A DNA stretch of 64,000 bases from NCBI GenBank assembly GCA_918797485.1, contig CAKKNE010000002.1, forward strand, positions 1,612,001 to 1,676,000, given 5' to 3'. The translations under genes and the position numbers were made by a program. Below are positions 39,766-58,800 of the stretch, piece by piece; position 1 is the first letter of the stretch; each line of letters begins with the position of its first letter. This DNA is from Pelagomonas calceolata (lineage: Eukaryota). Under the pieces are notes generated by a model. The model was not told where the DNA came from. It worked only from the letters and a program-made list of their open reading frames with translations, and searched no databases.

Positions 39766-40635
39766 TTACCGCCGCCGATTATGCAGCGGGTCCACGAGCC
39801 ACGCCTCTCCACTAAGGGTCCCCGCGGCCAGGCAAAAGTCGACCGGCTCCTGAACGCCCGTGCAGCCGAAGCCCGCGCCGTGGGCCCAGTCATCTTTCGA
39901 ATCCCCCATGAGCCAGGAGCAGTAGTCCGCCGCGTTGAAGGGCCCGTCCGTTGCCGAGCCAAATTCTGACAACCAATTGGCCTCCGCGAGCGCCGTGATC
40001 GACTCCAGTTGGTCTTTGCTACCCGTATCTACGTAATCTTTTGGTTTACTAAAGATCCAGGTCGCGTCGCAGTTGAAGAAGTAGAGTTTATTGGAGACAA
40101 TGACCCAGGGCTGACCCATCGTCTTCTCTTCGTACGGATCTTTCTGCCCGACACAGATGGGCACGGACGAGTCGCCGGTCACGACCTTCGACGCGCCGTC
40201 GACGTAGGCCACCGACGCCGTGCAGTGGCCGCCCATGCGCGGGGCATAGCGCCAAGGATCGCTTACGAACAGGTCCCGGTTGTGACCGTTCCGGAACCAG
40301 AAGACGTACGTGCCGTAAGATGTGGAAAGAGAGGCGCTGTATTCGGAACTGCCGGGCACGCCACCCTGGCTCGGCCGGACCTCGCCCAGATGATACGCAA
40401 CGACGTCGTACCCAAATACCACGGGGCAGCTCGCGGCGCCCGCCGTCGCCGTCAGCGCGACGGCGCGCGTCGGGAGTTTCGCGTTCCGGGCGCCGTTCAC
40501 CGCAAAGAGCCCGAGAAGCGCTATGGCGCCCGCCGCGAGCTGCCGCCGCCGTCTCTTCGAGCTCAGGACCATCATGGTCGCCCGCGCGGCGTCGTCGGCG
40601 GCGACGCTGCCGTATATTGGTGCTGCTGCGGCCAT
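39766..40635 (-). CDS. Membrane-anchored YHS-domain-like protein
   Basis: GYDVVAY...G...Y.FWF....NRDLF.SDP.RYAP..GGHC...W.IV.NKLYF. Confidence 0.7.
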   Translation of the reverse strand: MAAAAPIYGSVAADDAARATMMVLSSKRRRRQLAAGAIALLGLFAVNGARNAKLPTRAVALTATAGAASCPVVFGYDVVAYHLGEVRPSQGGVPGSSEYSASLSTSYGTYVFWFRNGHNRDLFVSDPWRYAPRMGGHCTASVAYVDGASKVVTGDSSVPICVGQKDPYEEKTMGQPWVIVSNKLYFFNCDATWIFSKPKDYVDTGSKDQLESITALAEANWLSEFGSATDGPFNAADYCSWLMGDSKDDWAHGAGFGCTGVQEPVDFCLAAGTLSGEAWLVDPLHNRRR

Positions 40636-41054: not shown

Positions 41055-41753
41055 CTAGAGCAGCGACATCGACGTCATGCTCATCGACTGCACCTCGTCC
41101 GCGAAGAGGTCCTCCGTGATTTCCTCGATGATCGCGTCCATGGACAGCGTCTGGTTGACGACGGCAGTACAGATGATTTTCTGCACGCCAAACGCGACGT
41201 CGACCAATTTTAGGCCCTCCGACCACTTGAGCCCGTCCTTCACGACGGTCTTCTTGATCTTTGCATAGAGAGCTTTCAGGTCCTGGTCCGCCTCCCAGGG
41301 CTTGATCTCGAGGTTACACAACGACCGTTGGTTCGCCTCCTTCTTCGCGAGCTTGGCCATGGCCTTGGCCTTGGCCTCCTCGAGCTCCTTGGCGGCCTGG
41401 GCCTTCTCCTCCTCGGTCTGCTCCTCGTCGTCGCCCCAGAAGTCGTCGTCGTCCTCCTCCTCGGCGGCGGCCGCGGGCGCCGGTTTGGCGGGCGCGGCTT
41501 TTTTGGGCGCGGCGGCCTTCGCCGGCGCGGGCGTCGGTTTGGATCCGGCGCCGCCCGCCACCAACGCGAGGCACTTGCTGCCGCTCAGGGCCGCCGTGTG
41601 CACGTACCAGCGGTACGCGTGCGGGTGCGCTTTTTGGTCCGGCAGGCCGATCTTGCCAAACACTTCCACGTCCTTGGCGGAGAAGGCGTAGCCCTCGACG
41701 TAGGACCGCGTCTTCATGTAGTCATTTACTTCCGCTGCGGTGGAGAGACCCAT
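41055..41753 (-). CDS. EEF1B: Translation elongation factor 1-beta
   Basis: RSYVEGY, HAYRWY.H, acidic linker, EIKPWE, GLKWS..KLVDVAFGVQK. Confidence 0.92.
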   Translation of the reverse strand: MGLSTAAEVNDYMKTRSYVEGYAFSAKDVEVFGKIGLPDQKAHPHAYRWYVHTAALSGSKCLALVAGGAGSKPTPAPAKAAAPKKAAPAKPAPAAAAEEEDDDDFWGDDEEQTEEEKAQAAKELEEAKAKAMAKLAKKEANQRSLCNLEIKPWEADQDLKALYAKIKKTVVKDGLKWSEGLKLVDVAFGVQKIICTAVVNQTLSMDAIIEEITEDLFADEVQSMSMTSMSLL

Positions 41754-42241: not shown

Positions 42242-43213
42242 ATGCGCGGGAGCCGCGGCGCCATCGCACGGCTCCTCGTCGCCATGACAATCACGCGCGC
42301 GCACCGCCTCGTCCGCCGCCGCACGGCGATCGCCGCGCTCGCACCCATACCAGCAAACGCGATGTGGCAGCTCTGGCTGCCGAGCGACATGGAGCGCTTC
42401 GTGGCCGAGGCCGACGCGAATGCTGACAGTGTCCTCGCGGCCATGGATAAATGCGCCGAGACGTCGTGGATGATGAACATGGGCAGCGCCAAAGGCGTTT
42501 TAATAGAAAAAGTTATACAGCAGAGAAGGCCCAAACGCCTGCTGGAGATCGGCACCTTCCTGGGCTACATGTCCATCCGCTTGGCAAGGAGCATGCCCGT
42601 CGACGCAATCCTGACGACGGTCGAAATTGATGAAGATAACTATGCGGCCTCGAGACGGATCCGGGCGAAAGCTCTGGGGAAGCGAGATGACAGTGTCGTG
42701 GCGCTCAAGGCGAACGCGAGCGAAGCTCTCAAATCGTTGAAGGGGCCCTTCGACTTCGTGCTCATGGACCACTGGAAGCCGGACTACGCGAGGGACCTCG
42801 AGGCGTTACGAAGAAAAGGTTTATTGGCAGATAAATGCATGGTCGTGGCGGACAACGTCTTGTTTCCGGGCGCGCCGGAGTTGCTGGATTATTTAAATGT
42901 ACCCTACGTGCCGGCGACCGACGCGGTGAGCGGCCAAGCTTGTTTACAGGCTGCTGCGGATATTGACCAGAAGTTCCTGAAGCGCGCCGAGAACGACTTG
43001 AAGGCGATCCGGCGGCGGGGCGGCGACGATGTCGAGGCGGACCTCGCGGACGCGTCGGCGCGCCTCGAGGCGTATAAGCGGGCGGCGGCGAGCAGACCGG
43101 CGCGCGACGCGGTGTACTCCGGGAATGGCTTCGCCACGACGTTAGCAAGGACGCCCTTCGAATATAGACCGGACACGCCCGACGCGATGACGTTCTCGGA
43201 GTACTCTCGATAA
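42242..43213 (+). CDS. Catechol O-methyltransferase-like protein
   Basis: WMMNMGSAKG, LLEIGTFLGY, DFVLMDHWKPDY, VVADNVLFPGAP. Confidence 0.85.
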   Translation: MRGSRGAIARLLVAMTITRAHRLVRRRTAIAALAPIPANAMWQLWLPSDMERFVAEADANADSVLAAMDKCAETSWMMNMGSAKGVLIEKVIQQRRPKRLLEIGTFLGYMSIRLARSMPVDAILTTVEIDEDNYAASRRIRAKALGKRDDSVVALKANASEALKSLKGPFDFVLMDHWKPDYARDLEALRRKGLLADKCMVVADNVLFPGAPELLDYLNVPYVPATDAVSGQACLQAAADIDQKFLKRAENDLKAIRRRGGDDVEADLADASARLEAYKRAAASRPARDAVYSGNGFATTLARTPFEYRPDTPDAMTFSEYSR

Positions 43214-43245: not shown

Positions 43246-44007
43246 CTAACGGTGCCCGCACCCAAACGCCACAGTCGGCGGGTCCCAGCCCAGGCCCGCC
43301 GCGAGGAACGCCAGGTTCTTGTAGTTCTGGCCCATATCACCCAAAGCTCCGTTGATGCCGCTAATCGACGACATGCGGACCTTGGCGTTGCCGCCGCTCG
43401 TCACGCCGACGGAGAACTTCAGCTGATCAACATACCCGCCGCTCGTGGCGTGAAACCCACTGGTCGTGTAGCGCCACGGCAACGCGGGAGAGAACTGGAA
43501 CGGGTAGTCGCCCTGGTCGTCCTCGGAGACGTGTCCGACGGTGTCGCTCGCCGGGGCCTTGGCGTAGAGGCCGTCGCCGCCGCCGTTCTCGAGGTACGCG
43601 GCCAGGGCGTCGTAGGCGTCGTCGACGCCTCCATCGACGTGGACGTCCAAGACGCAGCACGCGTTTCCGCAGGACCCTTGGTCCCACTTGTCGCAGTCGA
43701 CGGGCTGACTGCCCGCCTTCATGCCGCAGGTCGCGTCCCCGAGGGTCGGCTGATGCGTCGGCTGGCGCGACGGCGGCCTCGTATGCGTCGCGGCGAGGTA
43801 CTCGGGCACGCGCGTCTGGCGCCGCAGCGAGCGTATCGAGACGGTGGCTGCGAGAGCGACGCAGCCCAGCGCGAGCACGAATGCGGCTGCGCGGCCGCCA
43901 GCGCCCCGCGGTCGCCGCTGTGGCCGGAAGGAGAACACTGGAGAGTCTGCTGAGTCTGCGTCGTCGATGGCACAGGCAGGGGAGGTCGTGAATTCCAGTT
44001 CAGGCAT
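43246..44007 (-). CDS. Type II membrane hypothetical protein, possibly DUF1499-like
   Basis: One TM segment; YVDQLKF...S.SG...GDMGQNYKN. Confidence 0.55.
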   Translation of the reverse strand: MPELEFTTSPACAIDDADSADSPVFSFRPQRRPRGAGGRAAAFVLALGCVALAATVSIRSLRRQTRVPEYLAATHTRPPSRQPTHQPTLGDATCGMKAGSQPVDCDKWDQGSCGNACCVLDVHVDGGVDDAYDALAAYLENGGGDGLYAKAPASDTVGHVSEDDQGDYPFQFSPALPWRYTTSGFHATSGGYVDQLKFSVGVTSGGNAKVRMSSISGINGALGDMGQNYKNLAFLAAGLGWDPPTVAFGCGHR

Positions 44008-44346: not shown

Positions 44347-47300
44347 ATGAGGCTGCCCAAAGTCCTGCTGATGATGGCAGCCGCCCGGGCCCAGGAGCTC
44401 GAACAAATACGCCTCGAGTTCTTGGTAGATCATCTCCAGGAGACCATGGCCGACGCCTGGGACGTCACGGGCACGGTGGCCGAGCTCGTCGAGTCGGCCG
44501 TGCCGGACCACCAAGCTGATTTGGTAGGGGGCGCCGAAGCTTTACGCAAGGCCATCTTCGCGTCCCTGCGCATGTTGGCCGAAGAGGGCCGGGTCTACAT
44601 GATGTACGCGGGCTTCGAGGCGGACGGGACCTTCTGCGGGTACTACGGCGAGGGACAGAGCTCGCGAGGCGACGACTACTACTACACGCTGCTGCGGGGC
44701 TGGGACTGCGCCTGGAACTACGTGGATTCGTGCGCGACGGACTGCGCCGGGGACTGCGTTGCAGACGTGACCGTGCCGTGTGTTGATGGCTACAAGGGCG
44801 CCAACCCCGATTGTAGGCGCTACTACGACGTGTCCAGCGACACGGGCGTACCTGATACTTGCGCCTCGGCCGTGAGCTGCACGACGTATTTTGATGATCA
44901 CTACAACACGGCAGTCTACGACCCGCGCATGCGGCCCTGGTACACTAAGGTCAATGCCGCGACGCCGCGCGCCTGGTCGAGCGTCTACCCCTTCGCGAGC
45001 GAGGGCGTGCTGGGCATCACGGCGGCCTGGCGCTTCGCCAACAGCGGCGGCGGCGTCGTCGGGTTGGATCTGAAATTGGGCTCCATAAGACAGATCGTCG
45101 CCGACGCCTACGCCGCCGCCGACGGCTCATTCACGCCGGCCTACGTGACGACGGCCGATGGTTTATTAGTGGCCGCCTCGGATTCTAGTGTTGCGCTCGT
45201 GGATGGTGACGGAAATCCAGTAACCGCTACAAATTGCTCGTCGGCCGCGATCCGCGCCGGCGAGGCGTACCTGGCGACGTCAACCAGTTTCACGGGCCGG
45301 GCGGACGCGATCCTAGAAATAGAGGGCGTCCCGTACTGGCTCTTCCGCGGCGCCGTGGCCGACGCCTACGGCCTCGACTGGAGAGTCATCGCATTACATA
45401 CAGCCGCGTGCCGCGCGGGCTACGGTTTGCGGGGCAGCGCCTGCGCGCCCTGCCCCAAGGGCGCGGCGTCGGCCGCTGGAAAACCGTATTGCGACGTCCG
45501 CGCGCACCACTACCGCTTCGTGGAGAACGCGGTTGAAGTGTATGCGTGCCCGGCGCACGACGACGCCTGCCGCGGCCAGCGCGGTGATCATGGAGCCGGC
45601 GACGCGTTGTGCGCGCGCCGGGCGACGGGCCCGCTCTGCATGAGATGTATGAGGGGGCACCACCGGGTCGTCACGCGGAACGGTAGAGCAAGATGTAAAA
45701 AATGTGGCGACTGGCGGTCCATCGCGGGCGTCTACGTTTATTTGGTTGTTTTTGTGGGCTTGGCGTTCATCTGGTTGGCGTGGGCGCGCAAGGCGTTAGC
45801 GCGCGAGGTGCGGACGCTCGCCGACCGCTTACGAGCTAGAAGCCGGCTCCAGGGCTTCGACCGCGCGCTGCCGACGCTCTGGATCGTGGCGCGCCAGGCC
45901 ATCTACGCGATCACGGTCATGTCTCAAGTCAGGAGCATCGAGCGGTTGAGTCTGCCGCGGCCGTATAGTCATCTCATGGACGCGCTGACGGCGTTCGCGA
46001 TCGATATTGATAAATACTTGGGGCCGTTGGCGTGCTTCGAACTTGGGTATTATCAACAATTGATATTTTGGACTCTGTTACCTCCCGTACTGTTGATGAT
46101 AGCGGTGTCCCTGACGGTCGCGTCGGTCTCGATGCATCAATTACTCGCTAAACATCGCCTGACCTCAAAATTCAAGCGCCAGGACGAGTTCCGACGATCC
46201 TCAAGACCATCATTGCAGGAAGCTTCAAGAAGGGCCTGGGAGGCCGTGCGGACGCAGATTAATGCTGTGGTTGCCTTTAGAGCAAATACCCATTACAAAC
46301 CACCTATACAAGAAGACAAGGTCGTGACGATGGCGGACGCGCTACGTAAAGTCGTCACGGGCTGGGTCATCCTGTGCATCTATCTCCACTCATTTATTTG
46401 TGGGGTCATTTATAAGGCGTTCGTCTGCGCAAGGCCTTTACAGAGTGAAAAGTTCTTGACGGGACGAGGTGAGAAAGCTTTTTTACGGGCGGACTACGGC
46501 TTGGTGTGCGGCACGCAAACACACAAAGCTTACGTATTGTACGCTACACTAATGTTAGTAGTGTACGCGACCTTCCCCGCTATATTAGCGTTACGACTTT
46601 ATATCAACAGAAAAGACGGTAAACCGGACAAGTATCTAGGGTTCATGGTGTCCCACCTGCGGCCGGGCGCCTGGTGCCTCGAATGCGTCGCGATGTGGTA
46701 TCGCATGGTGCTAAGTGGCGCCTTGTGGTTGTTTTTCCGGAGGGATGATGATGTGGTGCGCTTGGGGTTGTGTGTGGTCTTCGTCATCTTGTTCGTGGCC
46801 GCCATCAGTTTTTTGCGACCCTATGCCACGGAAGGTAAGAGGCAAGCGTGCACGATGATCCAGCACTCTCTCTTAATTTTCTTCTGTCTGGCTATTGCCG
46901 TCAAAGGTGAACTTTTCAGTCCGAAACGCTTCGCCTTGTTTGGCACTTTGGCGTTTGTCGCCACGATTGGACTGGCGTGTGGCGTGGCCTGGCATGTCTG
47001 GCGGGCCGACGTTCGAGCACTCGTGGATGGCCTGCACGCCCATAAGCTAGATAGACTGGCACTCAGAAGGTTGTATGAAGGGGCCGAGAAGGCGGTGATC
47101 GGTGAAGCGATCCTCGAAGCGGCGTTGGTACCGATCGAGGGCGGCGTCGAGGCTAGTGACGAGCGCTGGGAGTTTGTGGAGAGCGAGCTGTTCGGGTCGC
47201 ATGGGGCGACGCGCGACGTGTTGCGGGACGTCTGGGACGACCCCGGTACCGAAGATCTGGAGCCCTGGCTTGGGGCCGTAAGAGCCCAGGCGTCGCGGAA

Positions 47301-48435
47301 GCTCTGGGCGGAGAATGATGACACGATGACCGTGGAGGCCTTTGCGAGTGACGTCGACGAGGCGGCGCCCTGGCTTCGAAATTGGCTGCGACCCTTTGTG
47401 GAGAGGGCCTACGCTTGCGTCGCTGAAGAGGGTCCCTTGAAATGTTGCGACGCGCTCTTGGCGTTCGACCTGGCGGTCATTCACGCGCTGGGCGGGGAGT
47501 GCACCGTCGACCAGGTGCGCAAGAAGCTCCACGGCCTGGCGCACCAAGCTACAGATAAAAAACACGCCTGGTCCTTCGCGCATGGTAAGGTGGCGCCGGC
47601 ATCATCATTTTCTGATGCTTTAAGAAGGGCAAGTCGTACTATTTTACATCAGCACGACGACCCCTACGCCTTCGTCAAGCCCGAGCAGCCGCCGCTGTGC
47701 TCGCGATATACTGTTTTAGCTATCCGAGCCAAGGCCCTTGCGTTACAATCAGACGACGCGATGGCCCAGATAGCTAGAGTGGCTTTGGAGGACGACGCAG
47801 GTCTCAAATTGGTCGAACGGGGCTCTGTTGGTTTAGAGATGAGTGTCGAGCAGCCGTCGCTGACGGATGCACAACTGGCGGCCTACGTGCAGACGCTCGG
47901 CGGATCATCTTTAAGGGATCGAGTGGACGCGGACGCGCTGCCGGACATTTTGCACGATTTAGCTGGTTGTGCTCATACTTCTTTTCGTAATGCTCTAGAG
48001 GCCATCGTCAAGGCGTGCCCCGGCAGCTCTTTGCTAGGTGGATGCGCGTCGGATACCGCGGTCAAATCTGTCTCGAGGATGCGCGCCAAGGTCCACGAGT
48101 ATCGAGCCGAGGAGGGGGCGACGTGGCCGGCCTGCGCGCGCGTCCAGGATCCGCTCCGCGCGACCATACTATGTGAAAGTAGTGCGGTCATGCTCGCGGC
48201 ACTGGAGCAGGTCGAGGCAAGACCGTTCCGGCTGTTGCGGCTGAAGAACAACCTCGCGAGCGAGAAGAAGCCCTTCAACCTCCACGCGGTCCTCGAGTAC
48301 ACTACAAAAGCGGTCGGCGTGCCGTTGGTCGTCGAGGTCCAGTTGTTGTTTGACGACCTGCTCCCGCTCTTCGAGCACACGCACAACCTGTACTCCGTCT
48401 ACCGGGCGCGGTCGTTCGCCGAAAGGCACACGTGA
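44347..48435 (+). CDS. Receptor-like protein: signal peptide, dCache, Cys-rich region, multi-TM, RelA/SpoT-like nucleotidyltransferase
   Basis: YDPRMRPWY...WSSVYPF...GVVGLDL; C..GPLCMRC; several TM helices; KSVSRMRAK...DPLRATI...LKNN...H...EVQL...H..Y...R. Confidence 0.75.
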   Translation: MRLPKVLLMMAAARAQELEQIRLEFLVDHLQETMADAWDVTGTVAELVESAVPDHQADLVGGAEALRKAIFASLRMLAEEGRVYMMYAGFEADGTFCGYYGEGQSSRGDDYYYTLLRGWDCAWNYVDSCATDCAGDCVADVTVPCVDGYKGANPDCRRYYDVSSDTGVPDTCASAVSCTTYFDDHYNTAVYDPRMRPWYTKVNAATPRAWSSVYPFASEGVLGITAAWRFANSGGGVVGLDLKLGSIRQIVADAYAAADGSFTPAYVTTADGLLVAASDSSVALVDGDGNPVTATNCSSAAIRAGEAYLATSTSFTGRADAILEIEGVPYWLFRGAVADAYGLDWRVIALHTAACRAGYGLRGSACAPCPKGAASAAGKPYCDVRAHHYRFVENAVEVYACPAHDDACRGQRGDHGAGDALCARRATGPLCMRCMRGHHRVVTRNGRARCKKCGDWRSIAGVYVYLVVFVGLAFIWLAWARKALAREVRTLADRLRARSRLQGFDRALPTLWIVARQAIYAITVMSQVRSIERLSLPRPYSHLMDALTAFAIDIDKYLGPLACFELGYYQQLIFWTLLPPVLLMIAVSLTVASVSMHQLLAKHRLTSKFKRQDEFRRSSRPSLQEASRRAWEAVRTQINAVVAFRANTHYKPPIQEDKVVTMADALRKVVTGWVILCIYLHSFICGVIYKAFVCARPLQSEKFLTGRGEKAFLRADYGLVCGTQTHKAYVLYATLMLVVYATFPAILALRLYINRKDGKPDKYLGFMVSHLRPGAWCLECVAMWYRMVLSGALWLFFRRDDDVVRLGLCVVFVILFVAAISFLRPYATEGKRQACTMIQHSLLIFFCLAIAVKGELFSPKRFALFGTLAFVATIGLACGVAWHVWRADVRALVDGLHAHKLDRLALRRLYEGAEKAVIGEAILEAALVPIEGGVEASDERWEFVESELFGSHGATRDVLRDVWDDPGTEDLEPWLGAVRAQASRKLWAENDDTMTVEAFASDVDEAAPWLRNWLRPFVERAYACVAEEGPLKCCDALLAFDLAVIHALGGECTVDQVRKKLHGLAHQATDKKHAWSFAHGKVAPASSFSDALRRASRTILHQHDDPYAFVKPEQPPLCSRYTVLAIRAKALALQSDDAMAQIARVALEDDAGLKLVERGSVGLEMSVEQPSLTDAQLAAYVQTLGGSSLRDRVDADALPDILHDLAGCAHTSFRNALEAIVKACPGSSLLGGCASDTAVKSVSRMRAKVHEYRAEEGATWPACARVQDPLRATILCESSAVMLAALEQVEARPFRLLRLKNNLASEKKPFNLHAVLEYTTKAVGVPLVVEVQLLFDDLLPLFEHTHNLYSVYRARSFAERHT

Positions 48436-48711
48436 TTGGGCCCCCAGGGCTCCCTGTGCTAAGTATCTTTGTGTGAATCTTTGAGAGATATCGAGATAAA
48501 CCCGTTTTGTAGCTTTAGTTTTTAGGCGTTTTAGACGTTTTTTTGCATCCTGCGCGGCCGCATCCAGCGCATTCGCACATGCACTGCGCCTTTTAGCAGC
48601 TCTACTTGTCTATTAGCGTGTCTGCACCCACCCGTGCCCAGCCGCCTCGCGTAAAACAAGACCCAGCAGCCAAGCCAGTCCAGGCAGCAAAAGCAGCCAA
48701 GCCGCAAACCG

Positions 48712-49560
48712 ATGGGCGCCGACCAGCCCCCAGCGCTCCTCGCCGAGCCGTCGGGCATAGTATTATGGCTCTGGTTCGAGGTCGCGGTCGGTCTGAGTGT
48801 TGTCGTCGTCGTCCTCTCGGCGCTCATTTTGGGGCTAGATGTGGACGGCGCGCCACCCATACCCGTCATCGTCGCGTTAATTTTGGGTGTGGGCTGCTTG
48901 ACGCTGGCGCACCAGGCTAGAAGTTACAGACGAACAGCAGGCTGGGTCGATGTGGATGACGACGGCTGGGACGAGCTGCGGCGCGAGGCGCAGTCCGAGC
49001 GCGACCTGCGGGGCTGGGAGGAGCTCGCGCCGCCGCCGACGGCCGCCGACGTCGCGGCCGCGCGCCACGAGTCCTTCTCGGCGCACGCGTCGCGGCTCTG
49101 CGCCGTTGCCTTTGCGACGGTCATAGCGTGGGCGGGCCTCGTCGGTTGTCTGATAGCCGGCGCCGTCCTCGCTAAAGAGTGGAGCACGGAGTTTATATTG
49201 TGGTGCGCGTGCGTCGCATGTCTTTCGATCTCCGTTTCCACATTACCGCTGTTCGCGCGGGCGCACTCCTGCGCCGCGGCGAACGGCGAGTCGTCCGCAT
49301 TACGATTCGCGCTCGCCTGTTCACAACCACCATGGCAATTGTGCGCGGGCGCGACGCGCGCGGCGCGCGGCACGGCCGCCTTCTTCCGGTCCGTCGACGC
49401 GCGACTGCCCTGCTGCCACCACGTGCGCAAGGCCCACAAGGCCGCGAGGGCGCCCAAGGGGCCGAAGGGTTCCGAGTCTCCTCGAAAGAAGAACGCGGAG
49501 GCGACGGCCGAGGAAACGGACGACCAATTCGCGGCCCCGGACGAGTTCCCCGAGGCATGA
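48712..49560 (+). CDS. Hypothetical 4-TM membrane protein
   Basis: Four hydrophobic segments. Confidence 0.65.
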   Translation: MGADQPPALLAEPSGIVLWLWFEVAVGLSVVVVVLSALILGLDVDGAPPIPVIVALILGVGCLTLAHQARSYRRTAGWVDVDDDGWDELRREAQSERDLRGWEELAPPPTAADVAAARHESFSAHASRLCAVAFATVIAWAGLVGCLIAGAVLAKEWSTEFILWCACVACLSISVSTLPLFARAHSCAAANGESSALRFALACSQPPWQLCAGATRAARGTAAFFRSVDARLPCCHHVRKAHKAARAPKGPKGSESPRKKNAEATAEETDDQFAAPDEFPEA

Positions 49561-49654: not shown

Positions 49655-52600
49655 TCACATATCCTCCGTCTCCTCCACGGCCCCGTCCCCGTCGGGCTCC
49701 TGCGCCGCGACGTCCTGTTCCGCGCACCACAGCGGGAAATCTAAAGATGTCCGCGTCGAGCGCGGGTCCGACAGCTGCGCTTTGCTGAGGTACTTCGGGA
49801 TTAGGGAGAGCGGTTTGCCGCCACCCAACAACACCCCATTCCGTTTCAGCGCGACCCGCGCGATGACGTGGCGCAGGAGCCAGTCTAGCTTCGCGGCATG
49901 CACTTTTCGCAGCGCCGCGTCGGAGACCGGGACATCAACTTCCTCCGGTACATCAACGGAAGGAGCGTCCCGCAAAGCCGCGAGGTCCACCCCTAACGCC
50001 GTCTTGACGGACGAGCCCGCTTTCTTACCCTTCTTCTTCGGTTTCGCCGCCTCCTGCTCGGCGAGGATGGCCGCCCGCGCCTGCTCCGCCGCCTCGCGCC
50101 GCTTTTCCGCCCGCTGCGTTTCCAGCACGTCCTCAATTTTCAAAGGATCCGAGAAGTCGCACGCGCCCGGCAGCTCCGCACACGCAGCGGCCACGCGCGA
50201 CAGCGCTTCGAGAAAGTCCACGAAGGCTAAGGCCTGCTCCGGTACCAAACTAAGGGGCCGCGCCCGGAAGAAGGCCAGGTGTAGCACCTGCGGCGTCAGT
50301 TCCATATACGTCGTCTGCAGGACGTCTCCGTCACTCATCAGGTCGAGCCACTTCTGGAGGGGCAGCCGCCCGTTCACGTGCGCTATGACGCGCGTCGCAT
50401 CATCATCAGAGGCAGAGTACACCACAAAAAGTCGTTGGAGCTCCTTGACGTGCGCGCCAAAGGCCCGCTCCGTGTCCCTCGCATAAAACAACTTGGCCCT
50501 ATGATCATCATCGGCCGCGGCCGGCGTTTTTGAGACGCGGCCCATCAGTTTGGAGATGGCCTGGTGGGGCCGCTTCTTGGACGCGCGCAACGCGAGTCTC
50601 ACGAGCGCGTGCAGGAACGTCGCCCGCGTCAGCGTGGGACCCTCGGCGGCCCGCTCGAAGGTCTTGCGCGCCTTCCGCCCGGGCAGCTTCAGGCCGATCT
50701 CCCTGAGAAAGACGCGGAAGTGCGGCTCGTGGAGGCCGAACAAATTACTTGGGTCCACATAATTGGCCGACTCCGGCGCGCTGAAGAAACCTACAACTGA
50801 TGCGGACGGCGAATTCAGGGGACTCATCACCGTCGACTCGAGGCTCGCCACCGTCGGCGAGTCGAGGCTCTGCAGCGAGCTGTCGAGGGTGTCCATGGCA
50901 CTCGACTGGAGCGTGTCCATCGATCCTCTAGATGCCCGCTTGGATCGGATCTTGAGGAAGTTCTGGCACGCGCAGTAGTGGTCGAAGACCCTCGCAATAA
51001 CACGGAAGTCCTTCTTTAATGAATCGTGGACGCTCTCGAGCACCACATCGAGGCCCGAGGGCGGCTTGGGCGTTTCCCCCACCTCGACCTCCTGCTGTAA
51101 TTCGTCAGGCAGCTGTGTTTGAACGACACCCTCGACCTCGATGTCCTCCAGCCCAGATATGGCGACCTTCTGCTTCTCGAGCTCGAGCTTGTACTCCTCC
51201 ACAGCCAAAGCCCGTTGCTTGGCCAGCTTCATCCGCGACTTGTGCTTCTTCTCGTCGTTTTTGGCACCATCCTTCTCGCATTTTTCTAGCAGCTCGACGA
51301 GAGCAGTGTTTGTTTTGATCGAATCCCAGTCGGCGGCCAGGACATTTCGTGATACTTCCTCAGAGTCGTCAAAGGTGTTAAAGTCGGTCTGGAACTGGCG
51401 CTGCGCGTAGAGCGACTGCTCGACGCGCCAGTCGTCTTCCTCGTCCTCCTCGCATGCGTCGCCGAGTTGTGACGTGACCAGCGTCAACGGTAGGACAGGT
51501 ATCATGCTGTCCATCGGTGATGGTCTGGGTGCTTTTTTAGCGAGAATGACGGGAGGGAGGTTTATGGGAGGCGCCCTTGCGAGACGAGGTCCTTGCATGG
51601 CCACTTCCAGTAAAGGATGCGGGAGCTGGAGCAAGGCGTCAGGCGCGGAGGCCACGCAAGCGACCTGGGGCGCGTGGTAGAAGTAGCAGCCCTCTCCATT
51701 ATCGTTGCCGACTGAGTCGAAGAGGCCCTCGGAGACGCGCGCGCCCGCGACTCGCTTCCACTTCACGAGCTTGGGCGGCGCCCTATCCAACGTCCGCCTC
51801 CTCCCATCGGACGCGAAGTGGAAGAATTCTTTTTCAGACGTGTCTGTCGATGCTAACACGACCCAGGACGCGTCTGGTGATGATGATGGCTCCGGTGGTG
51901 ACGAGGGACCGGCCTCGACGGTCTGGTGGCCCCGCGCCAACTTCTCGCGCACCTCAGCGTCGTCCGGGCGCGTGAGCAACTTGGCCAATATACCAGCCTT
52001 TGACGGGCTCTTGCGGGCTTCGGGCGTGGCCTCCGGCTCCTCTTGCGGCGCGGGCGCGGGCGCCGGCGCTTCGACGGGCTCGGGTTCGGCTTCCGGCAGC
52101 GTCGTATCGACGCCGCAAAACCTAGACACGGGCGGTTTCCACCTAGAACCGTCCGCGCCGCCCAATAATAGTGTCGATTTATGAGTCGCGTTCAGCTTCT
52201 TCAGCTCAGTACCATCAGCTTGCCACAGGTTCAGGGCGCTGCCCCTCAACAAGGTATTGACGGCCGGCGGCACCAACGGCGGTGCCACCGGATACAGGTC
52301 CGCCCTAGACTTAATCTCCTTCGGCGGCCGCCTCCTTTTTATGGTCTTCCGCTGCTCTATCACACCTTTGGAGGCCTCGGCGAGCTGGTAGTGGTATAAA
52401 GCGGCTCGAGAAGCGCCGTCGCACATGAGGTTGGCCAAGACCGCGCGCGCGAAGTCGCCGAGTCCATCGACGTACGCCGCGGCCTTGAGCAGCAGCGGGA
52501 CCGCCGCGTCGCAGAGGGCCGGCCTTGCACAGGGCTCCGCCGACAAATTGAGCAGCGCGCGGAAGGCGTCCGCGGTTATTGATCTGATCTTGGCCGATAA

Positions 52601-55384
52601 TGAAGCGAGGGACGCGGACCGCGGCGTATTGACATCATCATCTTGATCCGCGCCGTCGCCGTGGCGCGCTACTGATGCGAGGGCTCTTACCAAGGAACGG
52701 TCCACGCCCAGGCGCTTCCTCGAAGCGGGCGCCGTCGTGAGTAAGACGACGGCCCTTACAGAAGCGGCGAGATTGCCAGAAGACCAGGCTTCATTGTCAG
52801 GCAGGAAGGACGCGCAGGCCACGACGAGGGCTCCTAATACGCTTTCGAGGAAGCCCGCTTCCGTACATCGCTGGAGCGCGGCTCTTTGCCTAAGTGATTG
52901 GTCGCACAGCGCGACGCCGAGCAAGACGGACCCCGCTCTCAGGGCGAGGCCCGGCCCCGCTTCACTAAGAGACGCCGCGTCCTTCGCTAGTAACGCGGCG
53001 ACGGGCATCGGGCGCTCATCCAAAGAATCGAGTCTTGACTCGTCGACCTCGCGGCCGCGGACGAGCGCATATAAAGCGGCGACGGCCAGCGACCGTATGT
53101 GGACGAATCGGGCCATGTCTCCGGCGTCTGCCGTGCGCTCGCGCGCGAAGGCCCTCCCTGCTTCATCCGCGAGGCGCTCCAGGCCGCCCGCTTCAAGTAG
53201 AGCTCGGCCCTCGGTCCGCGCGAGCAAAGCTAGTGCGGCCAACGCGACGGCGTCGTCAACGTCCGGGCAGCGAATACAATCGAGCAACAGGTGCGCCGCG
53301 CCCGCCCTCGCGGCGGCGCGTCGATGTTCTTTCCGCCGCAGCAGCGCCCAGAGGGCGCGGCAGCCATGGCCGCGCACCTTGCCGCTCCGCTCCGACGTGC
53401 ACAATGCGACCGCGGCCTCGACGTCGCACTTGCGCCACCCTTCAGTGTGTAGTATGTTGTTGTCGTGTGGGTCCGGACTGTTGGCTCTCCCGTCGTAGTT
53501 GTCCCGCGCTGCGCATCGAGCCACGAAGGACGCGAGGTGCTGTGCCGTGCGCCGCAACGCGGCCTCCGCCTCCGCGTCGTCCCCGGCGTACCGGATGCGG
53601 TCCTCCGCCGTTCTTATGGATGCTAAGGCCCTTATGCAAGTATTGTGTTCCTCGCGCGCCCAATTTAGTTCTGCGGAAGGCGCGGAACATCCAAACTCGC
53701 TCGCTTCGGACCGTCCAAATTCGCTCAAACATGCCGCAGCCGTCTCCATGACGTGCCACGCCGGCCCTCCGACCAAACTGGTCCGCTCTTCGTCGTCGAT
53801 CGGGCGCGTGACCACGCACGCCGCCGACCCGCGGGGCCGCGCTGCCTCAACGAGCGCCAGGCACAGCGCCGGCACTTCATGCTCGAAGACTTTGCATTTG
53901 CATTTGAAACACCAGGGCCCCAGCACGGCGAGCGTGCCAAGAGCGGCACCGGCGGCAGACACGCCGGCGGCCGCCTCCCCTGGAGGGATGGCCTCGACGG
54001 GCGCCGGTGCCGGCGCCGGTGCGCAAGCGCAGTCCTCAAAGGCCGGCGCCGGCGCCCAGGCGTCCGGTTCCGCTTCATCGTCCACGAGGTGCGCCTTGGC
54101 CCGTGCCGCGACGGCGAGGCACACGTGCAACACCTTGTCGGCGTTTCCACTGTGCAGAACCGGGCCCCACTCGGTCGGATCTCCGTCGACCGCCGCGCGG
54201 GCCGCGCTCCAGAGGGCGACGGTCGCGTGCGCCAGGAGCCGCGGCGAATCACTAAGTCCTTGGGACCGCTGCGCCAGCGCCAGCCGCGCGCGTGTCGACG
54301 CGACCGCCGCTTCGTCATCCAGGAGCCGCACAGCGTCGGACCGCGTCGCCACCGCCTTGAGTAGTTGGTCGCACAGGTCGGCGAGCGGGCGTATCAAGGA
54401 CGCGGCATCCGCGGGCAGGATCGACGCCTGCTCGTCCCGCAAGACACAACTCGCGGCCTGGCAGATCGCGGCCGCCAGCTCCGTCGAAGGTGATTTGAGG
54501 AAGGGCCCCAGACTTTGCAAACGATGTTGGTCCGCGAACGCCGCGCGCGCGGCCGGCACATTTGATAGCCACCCGCAGAGGGCGTTCGCCGCTATTTTGG
54601 AAGTGGCTTCCTTCGCTATTAATTGAAGGAGGCAGGGCACTGGATCAAAATCTCGCGGCGCGTTTCCGGGCGATTCGAGGCAGCACGCGAGCGCAGAAGC
54701 ATGTTCAACACCCTTGTCGCGGCAGACCGCGTCCACCAAACGCTGGCCCCAGAGCAAGGACGCCATGCGCCTATCTAAATGCGCCGCGAGGCGCCAGACG
54801 ACCCTCGCCGAGGCCTCGTCCAAAGGCACAGACTGTAAACACTCACTTAGAGCTCGACAAGCGTTCTCGTCAAAACCCCGCAAATTTGCAGAAGTCGACG
54901 CCAACATTTCAAGATCTTCCAAAGCCGTGCGGCGGCCGTCTTCCCCGTATTTTTCTGATCTAGCAGTAGAAGCCGCTTTCAGCACCCGAAAGTCGACCTC
55001 CTCGTCGCGCCTAGCACCACAGCCGTCGACCCACTCCCTCCAGCAGTCCTCCCACTCAACTAACCTTTTCATGCGCACCCGCTCGGTGGGGTGGCCCAGA
55101 TGGCGTTTTTTCTTACCAGCAGGTGGCTTCGGACAAACGTCCACCACAACTTGTTTCGTGTACCCAAACTGCGCCGCCGCCGTCCTTCTCACGAGGTTGA
55201 GCGACCCCGTGAGTGGGAGGAGCTCATTTAGTTCCTCGCCCGTCTTTTGATCGACGATTTTTATCGGTAGGCCCTTGCCGTCGAGCACTTCAAAACCGGT
55301 CGTCGCGACGTCGCGCGTGGCCGTGACGTTTCGCACCAGAAAGCCGGCCTTCCTCCACTTCGACTGCTTGGCTGCTCCCCTCAT
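49655..55384 (-). CDS. Large armadillo-like helical repeat protein
   Basis: About 1900-aa ORF with ARM-like motifs (CRALWAL, ALLNLS). Confidence 0.7.
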   Translation of the reverse strand: MRGAAKQSKWRKAGFLVRNVTATRDVATTGFEVLDGKGLPIKIVDQKTGEELNELLPLTGSLNLVRRTAAAQFGYTKQVVVDVCPKPPAGKKKRHLGHPTERVRMKRLVEWEDCWREWVDGCGARRDEEVDFRVLKAASTARSEKYGEDGRRTALEDLEMLASTSANLRGFDENACRALSECLQSVPLDEASARVVWRLAAHLDRRMASLLWGQRLVDAVCRDKGVEHASALACCLESPGNAPRDFDPVPCLLQLIAKEATSKIAANALCGWLSNVPAARAAFADQHRLQSLGPFLKSPSTELAAAICQAASCVLRDEQASILPADAASLIRPLADLCDQLLKAVATRSDAVRLLDDEAAVASTRARLALAQRSQGLSDSPRLLAHATVALWSAARAAVDGDPTEWGPVLHSGNADKVLHVCLAVAARAKAHLVDDEAEPDAWAPAPAFEDCACAPAPAPAPVEAIPPGEAAAGVSAAGAALGTLAVLGPWCFKCKCKVFEHEVPALCLALVEAARPRGSAACVVTRPIDDEERTSLVGGPAWHVMETAAACLSEFGRSEASEFGCSAPSAELNWAREEHNTCIRALASIRTAEDRIRYAGDDAEAEAALRRTAQHLASFVARCAARDNYDGRANSPDPHDNNILHTEGWRKCDVEAAVALCTSERSGKVRGHGCRALWALLRRKEHRRAAARAGAAHLLLDCIRCPDVDDAVALAALALLARTEGRALLEAGGLERLADEAGRAFARERTADAGDMARFVHIRSLAVAALYALVRGREVDESRLDSLDERPMPVAALLAKDAASLSEAGPGLALRAGSVLLGVALCDQSLRQRAALQRCTEAGFLESVLGALVVACASFLPDNEAWSSGNLAASVRAVVLLTTAPASRKRLGVDRSLVRALASVARHGDGADQDDDVNTPRSASLASLSAKIRSITADAFRALLNLSAEPCARPALCDAAVPLLLKAAAYVDGLGDFARAVLANLMCDGASRAALYHYQLAEASKGVIEQRKTIKRRRPPKEIKSRADLYPVAPPLVPPAVNTLLRGSALNLWQADGTELKKLNATHKSTLLLGGADGSRWKPPVSRFCGVDTTLPEAEPEPVEAPAPAPAPQEEPEATPEARKSPSKAGILAKLLTRPDDAEVREKLARGHQTVEAGPSSPPEPSSSPDASWVVLASTDTSEKEFFHFASDGRRRTLDRAPPKLVKWKRVAGARVSEGLFDSVGNDNGEGCYFYHAPQVACVASAPDALLQLPHPLLEVAMQGPRLARAPPINLPPVILAKKAPRPSPMDSMIPVLPLTLVTSQLGDACEEDEEDDWRVEQSLYAQRQFQTDFNTFDDSEEVSRNVLAADWDSIKTNTALVELLEKCEKDGAKNDEKKHKSRMKLAKQRALAVEEYKLELEKQKVAISGLEDIEVEGVVQTQLPDELQQEVEVGETPKPPSGLDVVLESVHDSLKKDFRVIARVFDHYCACQNFLKIRSKRASRGSMDTLQSSAMDTLDSSLQSLDSPTVASLESTVMSPLNSPSASVVGFFSAPESANYVDPSNLFGLHEPHFRVFLREIGLKLPGRKARKTFERAAEGPTLTRATFLHALVRLALRASKKRPHQAISKLMGRVSKTPAAADDDHRAKLFYARDTERAFGAHVKELQRLFVVYSASDDDATRVIAHVNGRLPLQKWLDLMSDGDVLQTTYMELTPQVLHLAFFRARPLSLVPEQALAFVDFLEALSRVAAACAELPGACDFSDPLKIEDVLETQRAEKRREAAEQARAAILAEQEAAKPKKKGKKAGSSVKTALGVDLAALRDAPSVDVPEEVDVPVSDAALRKVHAAKLDWLLRHVIARVALKRNGVLLGGGKPLSLIPKYLSKAQLSDPRSTRTSLDFPLWCAEQDVAAQEPDGDGAVEETEDM

Positions 55385-55866: not shown

Positions 55867-58800
55867 ATGCCCTCCATCCAGGCCGTACTAAAACGTAGAG
55901 ACACGATCCAGCCGCCGCCCTTCCTTAAGAGCAAGCTAAAGAAGCTCGGCCCGCGCGCAACCACCATCGCTTTACAACCCCTCGATCTGGTCAAGAGGCG
56001 AGCCTTGGACGAGGATGAAGGGACACGAGCGTTCAGCAAGAAGCCAGTACCTCCCACGAGCCAGTTCGCACCGTTACAACGAAGACATTCCTTCCACACT
56101 TTGACAGACGAAGAACCGACGCTCCTCCACGACCTAAGGTCATATTTTGACCCCCAGTATCGACTGTACTTGGTGAAGAAACAACTGCTGAGCTTAGTAC
56201 GCGACGACGACGTCAGTGTCGAGGAGATGTTCGACCTCGTGGATGAAGATTTTTCCGGTGTTTTAGAACGAGATGAGTTGTGTAAAATGATACACATGTT
56301 ACAAATTAAGGTGAAGGAGGTCGAGATTGATACATTAATGGACATCCTGGATGAAGACGGCTCTGGAGGAGTGGACATCGACGAGTTCCAGGATTGGTTG
56401 TTCGCGACCGAAGATCAGTGGCTCGAAAGAAGACGTACTAGGGACGACGATGAATTTAATGATCAAAGGTTATTACAGCGGGATATTTTGAGGTTCGATG
56501 CGGACATACGAGGCATGCTCGGCGCCCTGTGGGACCTGGTCGATGCCGATGACTCGGGACAGGTCGACGTCGACGAATACGTGACGCTGTCTGTGAATTT
56601 ACAACGGGCGGTCACGGACGACTTTGATTTAGATGAGGCAAAAAAGATAGCTAAAAGAGAATTCGAGTTCGACGCCCAAGGCCACGAGACGATGGACAGG
56701 ACGCTGTTCTTTTGGTCGTTCTTTCAACTAGCGGACGCCTGGCGCGACGGGCCCGCCATCAACTCTGGGTCGTACTGTTATTTTATGGACTTTCTCTCGG
56801 ATCGATGCACGTCCATCGAAGTTGTTGAGGGTAAGCCTACGTTAGTGTGGAAGTGGAGCAGCGACCCGGAGTGGTACAGTAAGATCGAGCCGATGCGGCT
56901 CGTGGAGAAGAGGCGTAATGCAAGGCGCAAGAAGGGCCTGCCGCCGGAACCGATACCTTCTTCTCCTCTCAGGGAGATGGCCCTGTACAATCGCCAGCAA
57001 CAATATCCTGACGCGGTCGAGGCCTGTGTGGAAATCAAACTTCAGACGCCCCACGCCATCGACGCGACGTTGTCCCCGTAACTGCGTCTGCTCGATGGCG
57101 TGGAGGTTCACGAAGGTCTCTTGCAATCCTCAGGGTAACCTAGCTCACTGGTTGATTTCCACACAGGTCGAGGCCCCGGCGCCCAGCAAGAAACTGACCC
57201 TGAAGGAGGCCGCCAAGGCCGCTAAAAATGCAGTGAAAGCTCGAAAGAACCAGCAACGGCGCAAGGCGAGACGGTCCTGGGACCTCGAGCAGGAGGAAAA
57301 AGCACGACTGCAAGCTAGAAACGACGCCGACGCGAGTTATCTGGAGGCCGAGCGGCTGCGGCTCGAGATGGAGGCGGCTCGTTCCGAAGCTTTACGGGCC
57401 AAACAAGAGAAGCAGCGCGAGGCCCTTCGATCGAAAGCCGAGGCCAAAGCCCTTAGAGAGCTCGAGAAACGGGAAGCGGCGGCGAAGCGCGAAGCTGCGC
57501 GCCTGGAGAAGCTCGGCGAGAAGCAGAAGGCCGCTGACTTGAGGGAACAAGCTCGGAGAGAGGCGCAGCAGGAGCAGGCCCGTCTTAAAAGAGAGGCCGC
57601 GGCGGCGCGCGAATTCTCCCTGAAAAAGAAACTGGAGGACAAACTACGAGCGAAGGCCGCGTCCGCGGACCGGAAACGAAGACTCATGGAGGGCAAGGTC
57701 GAGGAGGCCGAACGTAGAAGATTGATGGACATCGAGCAAAAAGCGGCAGCTGCTAAAGCTCGCCGCCGTTCTTGTATAGGTGCGCCGGCGCCCGCTCCCT
57801 TTGTGGAGGACGATGAGTATGACTACCGGAAGATGCTCGGTTCTATTGCTAGAGAGTCGTACGACGACTTCAGCTACGCGTCGACGCAGCCGTCACCACC
57901 TGTGTGGAAATCAACCAGTGCGTCGGGCGCACCCGACAATTCTTCACTAAGTCATTTCTCGGTGATGGGGCGGCCGTGCTGGCTCGGTCGAGCGGTGGGG
58001 GGCTGGCATCGCCACGCCGTCGAGCAGGCGTCGCGCCGATGGCGTGGAGGACGATGCGACGATTCAGCGCGAACGCGCCGTAAATTTTGATTTTCACACA
58101 GGTCACCACCCAAAGATCGTAAGAAGAAGAGCTTCGCGTCGCCCCCGAAGGATGCGACGGAGTCCGAGGCCCCGCTGCCCGACTGGGACGCGGCGTCCTA
58201 CGCCGCAAGCCATAGGAGCGACGGGCCGCCGTCGGCGCGAAGCTTCGCGCGGTCGTTTCGCAGCGACGGCTCCGAAGTTAAGCAGCAGGATCCCGATTTT
58301 GATGAGAGGAGCGTCTCAAAATCGTATCGGTCGGACGGCACGGAGATTAAGGAGGGAGATGAAGACTACGACGACCCGAGTGCGGTGGCATCGGTAAGAT
58401 CTTACAGGGCGGACGGCACCGAACTCCGACCGGGCGACGCGGACTGGGACGACCTCTCGCACGTTTCTTTTGCTCGCTCCGTCACTTCTGTGGATGAGCT
58501 CTCGGTGCAGTCGTACCGGTCGGACGGCTCGCCGCTCAAGGTGCCGAGCCCCGGCAAATCCGATGCGCTCATCAAGGACTTCTTGTCGAGCCCCAGCAAA
58601 TCCGACATCTCGTCTCATAAAGCGCAGTACCAGGAGGCGGCGAGCCCCGTCCAGTCCGACCTGTCCTCACCAGCAAAAGATGATCTCAGCTATAGATCGG
58701 ACGGCTCGCTCATCAAGCCTACGGACCCCGACTCCGCGACGGACGGGCTCCGGTACCGCGAGGACGGTTCTCAGAAACTTCCTGAGGATGACGATTATAA

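What the first reader, a model, noticed from the sequence alone, without database searches (positions are those of the whole stretch)
44347..48435. Receptor with an extracellular amino-acid-sensing dCache domain and a cytoplasmic RelA/SpoT-like nucleotidyltransferase
Seen: signal peptide; YDPRMRPWY (44917-44943) plus downstream Y and D, fitting the YxxxxRxWY...Y...D amino-acid-binding motif of dCache_1 domains; Cys-rich linker; multi-TM bundle. The C-terminal domain (about 48060-48415) has K..R...K, D.LR, H and EVQ motifs in the order found in RelA/SpoT synthetase-like nucleotidyltransferases. Inference: a ligand-gated enzyme receptor that may make a nucleotide second messenger ((p)ppGpp-like or other) outside the plastid when external amino acids or organic nitrogen are sensed.
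Basis: partly seen in the sequence, partly recalled or inferred. Interest (0 to 1): 0.8.

Follow-up and report, generated by a model that had tools for sequence, protein, structure and literature searches.

The report
Algal amino-acid receptor with alarmone synthetase
This gene, likely from a marine alga, encodes a membrane protein with a bacterial-type amino-acid-binding motif at one end and a domain with the predicted fold of bacterial 'alarm nucleotide' enzymes at the other, so it would likely turn amino acids sensed outside the cell into a nucleotide signal inside; related receptors with other sensing parts occur in several algae and were not found described in the papers searched.

Summary
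One uninterrupted 1362-aa ORF (44347-48435, +), transcribed and polyadenylated, reads: likely signal peptide; dCache_1 sensor with all five amino-acid-binding residues (best PDB match PctA, E 3e-5) and no VWA insert; Cys-rich stalk; a predicted nine-helix TRP/Pkd2-like bundle that puts the C-terminus inside; a conserved helical linker; and a C-terminal RelA/SpoT synthetase fold (model pLDDT 94; Z 14 to RelQ and SaEAS). Metal-binding Asp/Glu and the two ATP lysines are kept and under purifying selection, but the guanine-stacking Tyr and three RelP arginines are replaced, so the product may not be (p)ppGpp. Best reading (0.55): a ligand-regulated, non-plastid pyrophosphokinase receptor making a nucleotide messenger. 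Binding, activity and coupling are untested.

The parts
44347..48435 (+). Single-exon ORF, 1362 aa: dCache_1AA - Cys-rich - 9TM - helical linker - RelA/SpoT-like synthetase
   Evidence: stranded poly(A) RNA reads on this strand, no joints listed; the same 1362-aa protein is in NCBI/UniRef
44347..44391 (+). Likely signal peptide (aa 1-15, cleavage ARA|Q); Gln at +1, not the aromatic/Leu residue of ochrophyte plastid presequences (rule recalled, not tested by a tool)
   Evidence: sequence; same ARA|QELE junction in orthologues P0002, P0162
44392..45402 (+). dCache_1 ectodomain without VWA insert; carries a Cys-rich insertion (8 Cys, aa 121-178) before the motif
   Evidence: PDB PctA E 3.3e-5; Pfam dCache_1 E 0.0016, 18.5 bits, below cut-off 45; NCBIfam GepA model matches aa 190-347, E 1e-5; no VWA Pfam hit
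44917..45069 (+). Amino-acid-binding motif Y191, R196, W198, Y214, D241
   Evidence: identical in 8 of 8 full-length sequences of the two clusters, about 72% identical between clusters
45403..45720 (+). Cys-rich stalk, ephrin-receptor-like/DUF7630 type
   Evidence: weak Pfam hits E 0.01 and 0.038; family profile matches mastigoneme Mst1 and ELAPOR1 Cys repeats
45721..46998 (+). Predicted nine-helix membrane bundle related to fungal TRP-like (Pkd2/Flc, PF06011) proteins; N out, C in
   Evidence: Atlas look-alikes incl. PF06011 cluster, score 0.93; family member P0154 hits PF06011 E 0.0012; hydropathy, K+R bias and conserved loop Cys
46999..47901 (+). Conserved cytoplasmic linker domain of no known family
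   Evidence: no Pfam hit; conserved W941, L948, L959, W963, F999, G1152 in the family alignment; dN/dS 0.04-0.30
47902..48411 (+). RelA/SpoT-type synthetase (SYNTH) fold; K1240, R1244, K1248, D1268, R1271, K1300, N1301, H1313, E1330, Q1332, H1346, Y1349, R1353
48268..48285 (+). Altered acceptor (G-) loop KPFNLH in place of GYRSYH: guanine-stacking Tyr replaced by Pro
   Evidence: role of the Tyr from PMC5794853
48477..48477 (+). Poly(A) addition site
   Evidence: 5 reads with A tails in run X21

Best explanation
The protein is likely an enzyme-linked cell-surface receptor: an amino acid would bind the dCache domain, predicted to lie outside, the change would pass through the Cys-rich stalk and the predicted nine-helix bundle, and the RelA/SpoT-fold domain, predicted to lie in the cytosol, would transfer pyrophosphate from ATP to an acceptor to make a nucleotide messenger that is probably not, or not only, (p)ppGpp. 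Shown: the ORF, its transcription, the intact amino-acid motif, the conserved catalytic Asp/Glu/Lys set, purifying selection, and a family in which the same output sits behind different ectodomains. Predicted: the fold and the topology. Inferred: ligand binding, catalysis, coupling, product, and whether ligand turns the enzyme on or off.
For: Sensor: all five motif residues align with PctA and are kept in 8 of 8 full-length orthologues. Fold: family profile against PDB gave 6 hits, 6 of 6 small alarmone synthetases (E 0.015-0.32); model pLDDT 93.6, pTM 0.86; Foldseek 47 matches at E<=0.001, the listed ones all RSH synthetases, best TM 0.69 to SaEAS; VIA Z 14.1 RelQ (rmsd 2.5, 146 aligned), 13.8 SaEAS, the first 28 rows all RSH, DNA polymerase X family at 8.7 or less. 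Catalytic set: 77 of 90 domain-spanning rows keep all 11 core residues, against a median column conservation of 0.33; E1330 and R1244 in 90 of 90, D1268 in 89 of 90. dN/dS of the domain 0.07-0.18 in 6 of 6 loci long enough to score (7 fetched). Topology: mean K+R near the membrane 4.6, 4.5, 5.1, 1.7 in predicted inner loops against 1.8, 2.1, 0.8, 0.8 in outer loops; invariant Cys in outer loops 2 and 4 (16/16, 18/18, 18/18); Pkd2 has nine predicted helices, N out, C in (10.1101/2022.08.11.503631). Modularity: of 18 hits of 600 aa or more among the 150 listed, all found through the synthetase alone, 11 carry the same membrane bundle and 4 a Venus-flytrap domain plus one helix; ectodomains include Peripla_BP_6, ANF_receptor, beta-helix and Cys repeats.
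Against: Of ten RelP residues named as ATP-, Mg- or guanine-binding (PMC5794853) only five are identical by sequence alignment (K80, K88, D107, E174, H190); R78, R91 and R112 map to A1238, E1251 and T1273, S84 to R1244, and Y151 to P1309. Loss of the R78 equivalent goes with inactivity in Arabidopsis RSH1 (PMC6881373). No single sequence of this gene hits Pfam RelA_SpoT (3 of 73 family rows do, best E 0.0032). The dCache match is below the Pfam cut-off and covers mainly the motif half; the ectodomain was not folded. Helix 2 is weakly hydrophobic (mean 0.83) and the K+R contrast between loops 6 and 7 is nil per residue (0.157 vs 0.164); an even helix count would put the enzyme outside. About 300 residues separate the last helix from the enzyme and no coupling path is known. 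RNA depth falls to zero in some 5' bins of two runs and all four runs are one sample.
Confidence: 0.55

Rival explanations
1. Ligand-gated channel or transporter with a nucleotide-binding regulatory tail: the TRP-like bundle is the output, and the synthetase-fold domain only binds ATP or another nucleotide.
For: Bundle resembles PF06011 putative channels and keeps polar residues inside predicted helices (H681 15/16, E779 16/19, R786 19/19, R805 17/19); three RelP arginines and the G-loop Tyr are replaced.
Against: The metal-binding Asp and Glu are almost invariant (89/90, 90/90); the same domain follows single-helix flytrap receptors and soluble LRR proteins that have no bundle.
Confidence: 0.18
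2. Receptor-coupled defence effector: on detecting a cue from a grazer, bacterium or virus the enzyme depletes ATP as (p)ppApp or blocks tRNA ends and halts the cell's own growth, as bacterial toxic synthetases do.
For: The D-x-x-R and H-x-x-Y-x-x-x-R patterns are those of SaEAS; 4 of 73 rows hit the XopAD model; Tas1/Apk-like phage proteins lead the viral fold search; LRR and adhesion-like ectodomains occur in the family.
Against: The gene is single-copy in the window, syntenic in relatives, steadily transcribed and under strong purifying selection in all domains; its own sensor has a nutrient-type amino-acid motif.
Confidence: 0.14
3. Canonical (p)ppGpp synthetase placed in an endomembrane next to the plastid (ER or outer plastid membranes), feeding the known plastid ppGpp pathway.
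For: Closest folds are (p)ppGpp synthetases RelQ and RelP; 10 of 90 family rows, including the cryptophyte receptors, keep a G-[YF]-R-[DNQ] loop; plastid ppGpp signalling exists in ochrophytes (PMC6881373, PMC10107265).
Against: [quoted passage not shown]
Confidence: 0.08
4. Chance fusion or relic with uncoupled parts.
For: The dCache version was seen only in two sequence clusters.
Against: One frame in the window and in full-length orthologues at about 72% identity; dN/dS 0.04-0.21 over all five regions against L001; transcribed.
Confidence: 0.05

Closest known systems
Small alarmone synthetases RelQ/RelP (PDB 5DED, 6EX0) and the exported synthetase SaEAS (8VX3), Tas1/Apk1 (6OX6)
   Same: SYNTH fold (Z 14.1, 13.2, 13.8, 10.9); Mg-binding Asp and Glu, two ATP lysines, ExQ, ribose His; D-x-x-R and H-x-x-Y-x-x-x-R as in SaEAS
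   Different: Eukaryotic, C-terminal to a sensor and membrane bundle; K-x3-R-x3-K instead of R-x-K-x3-S-x3-K-x2-R; G-loop PFNLH without Tyr; 13-16% identity
Plastid RSH1/RSH2-3/RSH4 of plants and algae; sporadic eukaryotic divRel synthetases
   Same: Synthetase domain in an alga (PMC6881373, PMC3153485)
   Different: No hydrolase, TGS or ACT domain; membrane receptor layout; the two Guillardia members were not found by accession in the diatom RSH supplement
Bacterial dCache_1AA receptors (PctA; dCache-GGDEF/EAL/cyclase one-component receptors)
   Same: Amino-acid motif; sensor outside, nucleotide enzyme inside (PMC8915833)
   Different: Output is an RSH synthetase, not among the outputs listed in that paper's Fig. 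6 legend; joined through a Cys stalk and nine helices, not two helices
Eukaryotic Cache proteins: alpha2delta/CACHD1 and mGlyR/GPR158-GPR179
   Same: Cache ectodomain; in mGlyR a Cache domain on a Cys-rich EGF-like stalk above a membrane bundle (PMC12716839)
   Different: No VWA insert, which PMC8915833 reports for all eukaryotic dCache_1 proteins it found; bundle is TRP-like, not a 7TM GPCR; carries its own enzyme
Receptor guanylyl cyclases and trypanosome receptor adenylyl cyclases (recalled, no call)
   Same: Logic and, for the cryptophyte members, layout: flytrap ectodomain, one helix, nucleotide-messenger enzyme
   Different: Enzyme is a pyrophosphokinase fold, not a class III cyclase
Fungal TRP-like Pkd2/Flc proteins (PF06011)
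   Same: Nine predicted helices, N-terminal ectodomain, cytoplasmic C-terminus
   Different: Ectodomain and tail replaced by sensor and enzyme; similarity is weak (E 0.0012 for 1 of 21 rows)

Membership tests
RSH synthetase (SYNTH) domain superfamily | SYNTH fold, closer to RSH than to other pol-beta nucleotidyltransferases | tested here: met
   Z 14.1 to RelQ against 8.7 or less for pol X family (predicted model)
RSH synthetase (SYNTH) domain superfamily | Mg-binding Asp and Glu (RelP D107, E174; SaEAS D121, E182) | tested here: met
   D1268 and E1330; 89/90 and 90/90 in the family
RSH synthetase (SYNTH) domain superfamily | Donor-ATP site R-x-K-x3-S-x3-K-x2-R plus stacking Arg (RelP R78, K80, S84, K88, R91, R112) | tested here: inconclusive
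   Both Lys kept; R78, R91, R112 replaced; two other near-invariant Arg (R1244 90/90, R1271 88/90), the latter spaced as SaEAS R124. Mapping is by sequence alignment and spacing, not by superposed coordinates
RSH synthetase (SYNTH) domain superfamily | ATP-dependent pyrophosphate transfer | not testable with these tools
   needs an assay
Canonical (p)ppGpp synthetases (Rel/RelA/RelP/RelQ, plastid RSH) | G-loop tyrosine that binds the guanosine acceptor | tested here: not met
   P1309 at that place; Tyr 6/90, Pro 68/90 at the column; the neighbouring F1310 might stack instead (inference)
Canonical (p)ppGpp synthetases (Rel/RelA/RelP/RelQ, plastid RSH) | Long RSH domains (HD hydrolase, TGS, ACT) | tested here: not met
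   no such Pfam or NCBIfam hit in the protein
dCache_1AA sensor domains | Y-x4-R-x-W ... Y ... D motif aligned to PctA | tested here: met
   15 residues between W and Y, 26 between Y and D (paper: about 27-34; PctA alignment shows a 2-residue gap)
dCache_1AA sensor domains | Double-module dCache_1 fold | tested here: inconclusive
   Pfam 18.5 bits, below cut-off; GepA model covers aa 190-347; ectodomain not folded
dCache_1AA sensor domains | Binds amino acids | not testable with these tools
   needs thermal shift or ITC
Eukaryotic VWA-split dCache proteins (alpha2delta/CACHD1 type) | VWA domain inserted in the dCache | tested here: not met
   motif halves are contiguous; no VWA hit
Fungal TRP-like Pkd2/Flc (PF06011) | Nine-helix bundle matching PF06011 | tested here: inconclusive
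   Atlas cluster with PF06011 on 25% of members, score 0.93; 1 of 21 rows hits, below cut-off; this protein itself does not
Fungal TRP-like Pkd2/Flc (PF06011) | Ion or solute conduction | not testable with these tools
   needs electrophysiology or flux assay
toxSAS / Apk / EAS clade | Phylogenetic placement with Apk1, SaEAS or XopAD-type domains | not tested
   no tree with bacterial rows was built; only motif and fold likeness

The most novel reading that the evidence does not exclude
Marine algae own an undescribed class of cell-surface receptors, 'receptor alarmone synthetases', in which exchangeable ectodomains (amino-acid dCache, Venus flytrap, adhesion and repeat domains) control a cytosolic RelA/SpoT-fold enzyme that makes a pyrophosphorylated nucleotide messenger new to eukaryotic cytosolic signalling; this gene is the amino-acid-sensing member.
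Probability: 0.45. Interest if true: 0.92.

Novelty: categorically new. Interest (0 to 1): 0.82.

Why it matters
In the papers read, alarmone synthesis in eukaryotes is a plastid matter, with scattered stand-alone synthetases of unknown role and an open question about cytosolic (p)ppGpp (PMC10107265, PMC3153485). A receptor family with this output would add a class of enzyme-linked receptor beside kinases and cyclases, point to a cytosolic nucleotide messenger in abundant phytoplankton, and give a direct handle on how such algae sense dissolved amino acids. Both ends are small soluble domains that can be expressed and assayed separately, so the claim is cheap to test. The parts are each known; the class rating rests on the architecture, which is shown, not on activity, which is not.

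Tried and rejected
Single-sequence model of the C-terminal domain: pLDDT 51.5, no fold match; discarded and replaced by the alignment-based model. Single-sequence search of PDB with the domain: 2 weak unrelated hits. Word-indexed protein searches found only 2 near-length relatives for either end and 9 long proteins with the profile, so family size is a lower bound. No paralogue in the window; no whole genome is held, so copy number and a partner hydrolase could not be checked. tblastn of the ectodomain against plasmids and of a Tyr-loop family member against phages and plasmids: no match; PHROGs gave only unnamed weak hits: no close prokaryotic donor found. The family profile could not be used for genome or viral locus scans. 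No solved structure matched the membrane bundle or linker. The wide VIA search was not run; the Z-scores are a second look at Foldseek's candidates. One search had a two-residue numbering slip, so its residue counts are void; one search gives the corrected counts. The tree is the quick version, unrooted, without bacterial rows: the 20 nine-helix rows fall on one side of a branch with support 94, which is only suggestive. V1315, against Asn in 68 of 90 rows, first looked like a lost catalytic residue, but it aligns with a Val of RelQ and was set aside. P0116 (cadherin repeats) is a false hit among the 150. A Verrucomicrobiota label on one 1.5-kb contig is taken as likely mis-binning, untested. 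No complex prediction was made, as no binding is claimed.
Full report
Setting. The window is compact, GC-rich eukaryotic DNA. The finding is one open frame, 44347-48435 on the + strand, 1362 aa. The identical protein is held by NCBI and UniRef. Named family members come from Aureococcus anophagefferens, Pelagophyceae sp. CCMP2097, Chrysophaeum taylorii, Guillardia theta and Cryptomonas curvata, and close orthologues are in marine metagenome contigs, so the host is likely a pelagophyte alga (inference). No whole genome is held.

Expression. Four stranded poly(A) runs of one sample, 6-12% of each read, lay on the gene in the orientation expected for a + strand RNA, with depth near 60 at the 3' end and 0-15 in the 5' half, no joints listed, and A tails at 48477. 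Some 5' bins are empty in two runs, and short reads cannot show one transcript.

Sensor end. Residues 1-15 look like a signal peptide, with the same ARA|QELE junction in orthologues (by eye). The ectodomain's best PDB matches are amino-acid chemoreceptors PctA, PctB and relatives (E 3.3e-5). Y191, R196, W198, Y214 and D241 sit on the five motif positions defined for PctA (PMC8915833) and are identical in 8 of 8 full-length sequences from two clusters about 72% alike. Pfam dCache_1 scores below its cut-off; the NCBIfam GepA model covers aa 190-347 (E 1e-5), which suggests both modules. There is no VWA insert, unlike all eukaryotic dCache_1 proteins in that survey; a Cys-rich insertion (aa 121-178) precedes the motif. 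The ectodomain was not folded.

Membrane part. A Cys-rich stalk leads to a bundle whose look-alikes include a PF06011 TRP-like cluster; one family member hits PF06011 weakly. Seven helices are clear in this protein. In an alignment of 20 rows (this protein plus 19 of 21 candidates that matched) I assigned nine: predicted inner loops carry more K+R near the membrane (means 4.6, 4.5, 5.1, 1.7) than outer ones (1.8, 2.1, 0.8, 0.8), and outer loops 2 and 4 hold invariant Cys. Helix 2 is weakly hydrophobic and the last loops show little contrast per residue. Fission-yeast Pkd2 has the same predicted nine-helix, N-out, C-in plan. The C-terminal part is therefore predicted cytosolic, opposite the Cache domain. 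A 300-residue linker of no known family is conserved in the nine-helix members.

Enzyme end. A search of 1.84 billion representatives with the last 174 residues gave 154 proteins at E<=0.001, 150 listed. A profile of 73 rows hit 6 PDB sequences, all small alarmone synthetases; a second profile aligned the family's G-Y-R-D loop on RelQ's GYRSYH. The alignment-based model is confident (pLDDT 93.6). Foldseek returns RelP, SaEAS and RelQ first (47 matches at E<=0.001, best TM 0.69); VIA gives Z 14.1 to RelQ and 13.8 to SaEAS, 28 RSH rows before the first polymerase-X row at 8.7. Of 184 stored proteins that matched the profile, 95 spanned the domain after 24 listed cluster copies were excluded, and 90 after five more were dropped; 77 of 90 keep all of K1240, R1244, K1248, D1268, R1271, K1300, N1301, E1330, Q1332, H1346 and R1353, against a median column conservation of 0.33 (rows were found with this protein as query, which favours its motifs). 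dN/dS for the domain is 0.07-0.18 in the 6 of 7 loci long enough to score, and 0.04-0.21 across all five regions against L001 (some pairs are near saturation).

What is altered. Against the ten RelP residues named in PMC5794853, five are identical (K80, K88, D107, E174, H190). R78, R91 and R112 map to Ala, Glu and Thr; S84 maps to an Arg found in 90 of 90 rows; the guanine-binding Tyr maps to Pro. Against SaEAS, D121, R124, K154, E182 and Q184 match D1268, R1271, K1300, E1330 and Q1332 (the last two from a printed alignment; the others by spacing). Ten of 90 rows, among them the cryptophyte receptors, keep a G-[YF]-R-[DNQ] loop; 53 of 90 have P-[FY]-[NC]-x-H. The site thus looks remodelled as a family trait rather than decayed; since RSH-fold enzymes accept guanosine or adenosine nucleotides or tRNA ends (PMC11782079), the product is open.

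The family. Of the 18 listed hits of 600 aa or more, found through the synthetase alone, 11 carry the same membrane bundle, 4 have a Venus-flytrap domain and one helix, 2 have other membrane segments and 1 is a false hit. Ectodomains on the nine-helix type include Peripla_BP_6, beta-helix and Cys repeats; some have a PH domain inside; two shorter members join LRR repeats to the synthetase. The dCache version was seen only in this protein's cluster and one sister cluster. Exchangeable inputs on a fixed enzymatic output is the pattern of enzyme-linked receptors (inference).

Mechanism. Most likely (0.55) an amino acid binds the distal dCache pocket, the stalk and bundle relay the change, and the cytosolic domain transfers pyrophosphate from ATP to an acceptor, giving a messenger that is probably not classical (p)ppGpp. 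Rivals: a channel with a nucleotide-binding tail (0.18), a self-arresting defence effector (0.14), a true ppGpp source near the plastid (0.08), an uncoupled fusion (0.05). It works like a receptor cyclase (analogy recalled), belongs by fold and metal ligands to the RSH synthetase superfamily, and is not filed as a canonical (p)ppGpp synthetase because the G-loop Tyr test failed.

Literature. Ten full-text searches (one search was unspecific because 'rela' matched common words) listed no paper on a eukaryotic receptor fused to an RSH synthetase. Seen: PMC8915833 parts 1-4 of 5 and a term search of its supplements; PMC12691689 part 1, section 5 and passages, with no occurrence of 'eukary'; PMC6881373 passages, section 8 and a supplement term search that did not find the identifiers tried for the two Guillardia members; passages only of PMC3153485, PMC3482391, PMC10107265, PMC8252717, PMC12716839, PMC5794853, PMC10083569, PMC11782079, PMC7229694, PMC9481584 and 10.1101/2022.08.11.503631. 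PMC3153485 records scattered stand-alone synthetases in fungi, Dictyostelium and two diatoms and a hydrolase-only protein in Aureococcus, and has no occurrence of 'transmembrane'. Most subscription journals are not searched, and unsearched supplements may list members. Earlier notes of this scan hold no sequence look-alike but report other unstudied synthetase fusions; these are leads only.

Verdict. Observation confirmed, interpretation supported as far as computation reaches, and widened from one gene to a receptor family. Interest 0.82.

Noticed in passing
L002:3981-4074: A syntenic orthologue carries a 94-base GT-AG intron, phase 0, in outer loop 2 of the membrane bundle; 94%-identical P0002 has none, and several 823-aa 'truncated' records start just after this point, so it looks like an intron presence/absence polymorphism.
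   Followed up: partly
P0139/P0193 (Guillardia theta EKX31446.1, EKX43229.1), P0194, P0076: Single-helix receptors with one or two Venus-flytrap domains (one also a 5'-nucleotidase domain) ending in the same synthetase; the Guillardia pair's branch keeps the Tyr loop and is the best place to test (p)ppGpp synthesis.
   Followed up: partly
P0154, P0156, P0196 and relatives: Branch with a PH domain between the membrane bundle and the synthetase.
   Followed up: no
P0035, P0053: Proteins with LRR repeats fused to the same synthetase and no clear membrane helix; possible cytosolic sensor-effector forms.
   Followed up: no
window 39766-40635 (-): Membrane-anchored protein with a bacterial-type YHS-domain (seleno)protein match, E 1.8e-12, below cut-off.
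   Followed up: no
window 42242-43213 (+), 43246-44007 (-), 48712-49560 (+), 49655-55384 (-): O-methyltransferase, an unknown single-helix protein, an unknown membrane protein and a 1909-aa protein without family hits; all four are syntenic with the receptor gene in at least one relative. No functional link shown.
   Followed up: partly
window 41055-41753 (-): Translation elongation factor 1-beta/delta (Pfam EF1_GNE, E 4e-18); ordinary.
   Followed up: no
window 55867-57081 (+): 404-aa ORF with a weak match to a calcium-binding effector model (E 5e-7, far below cut-off), likely only EF-hand repeats (inference).
   Followed up: no
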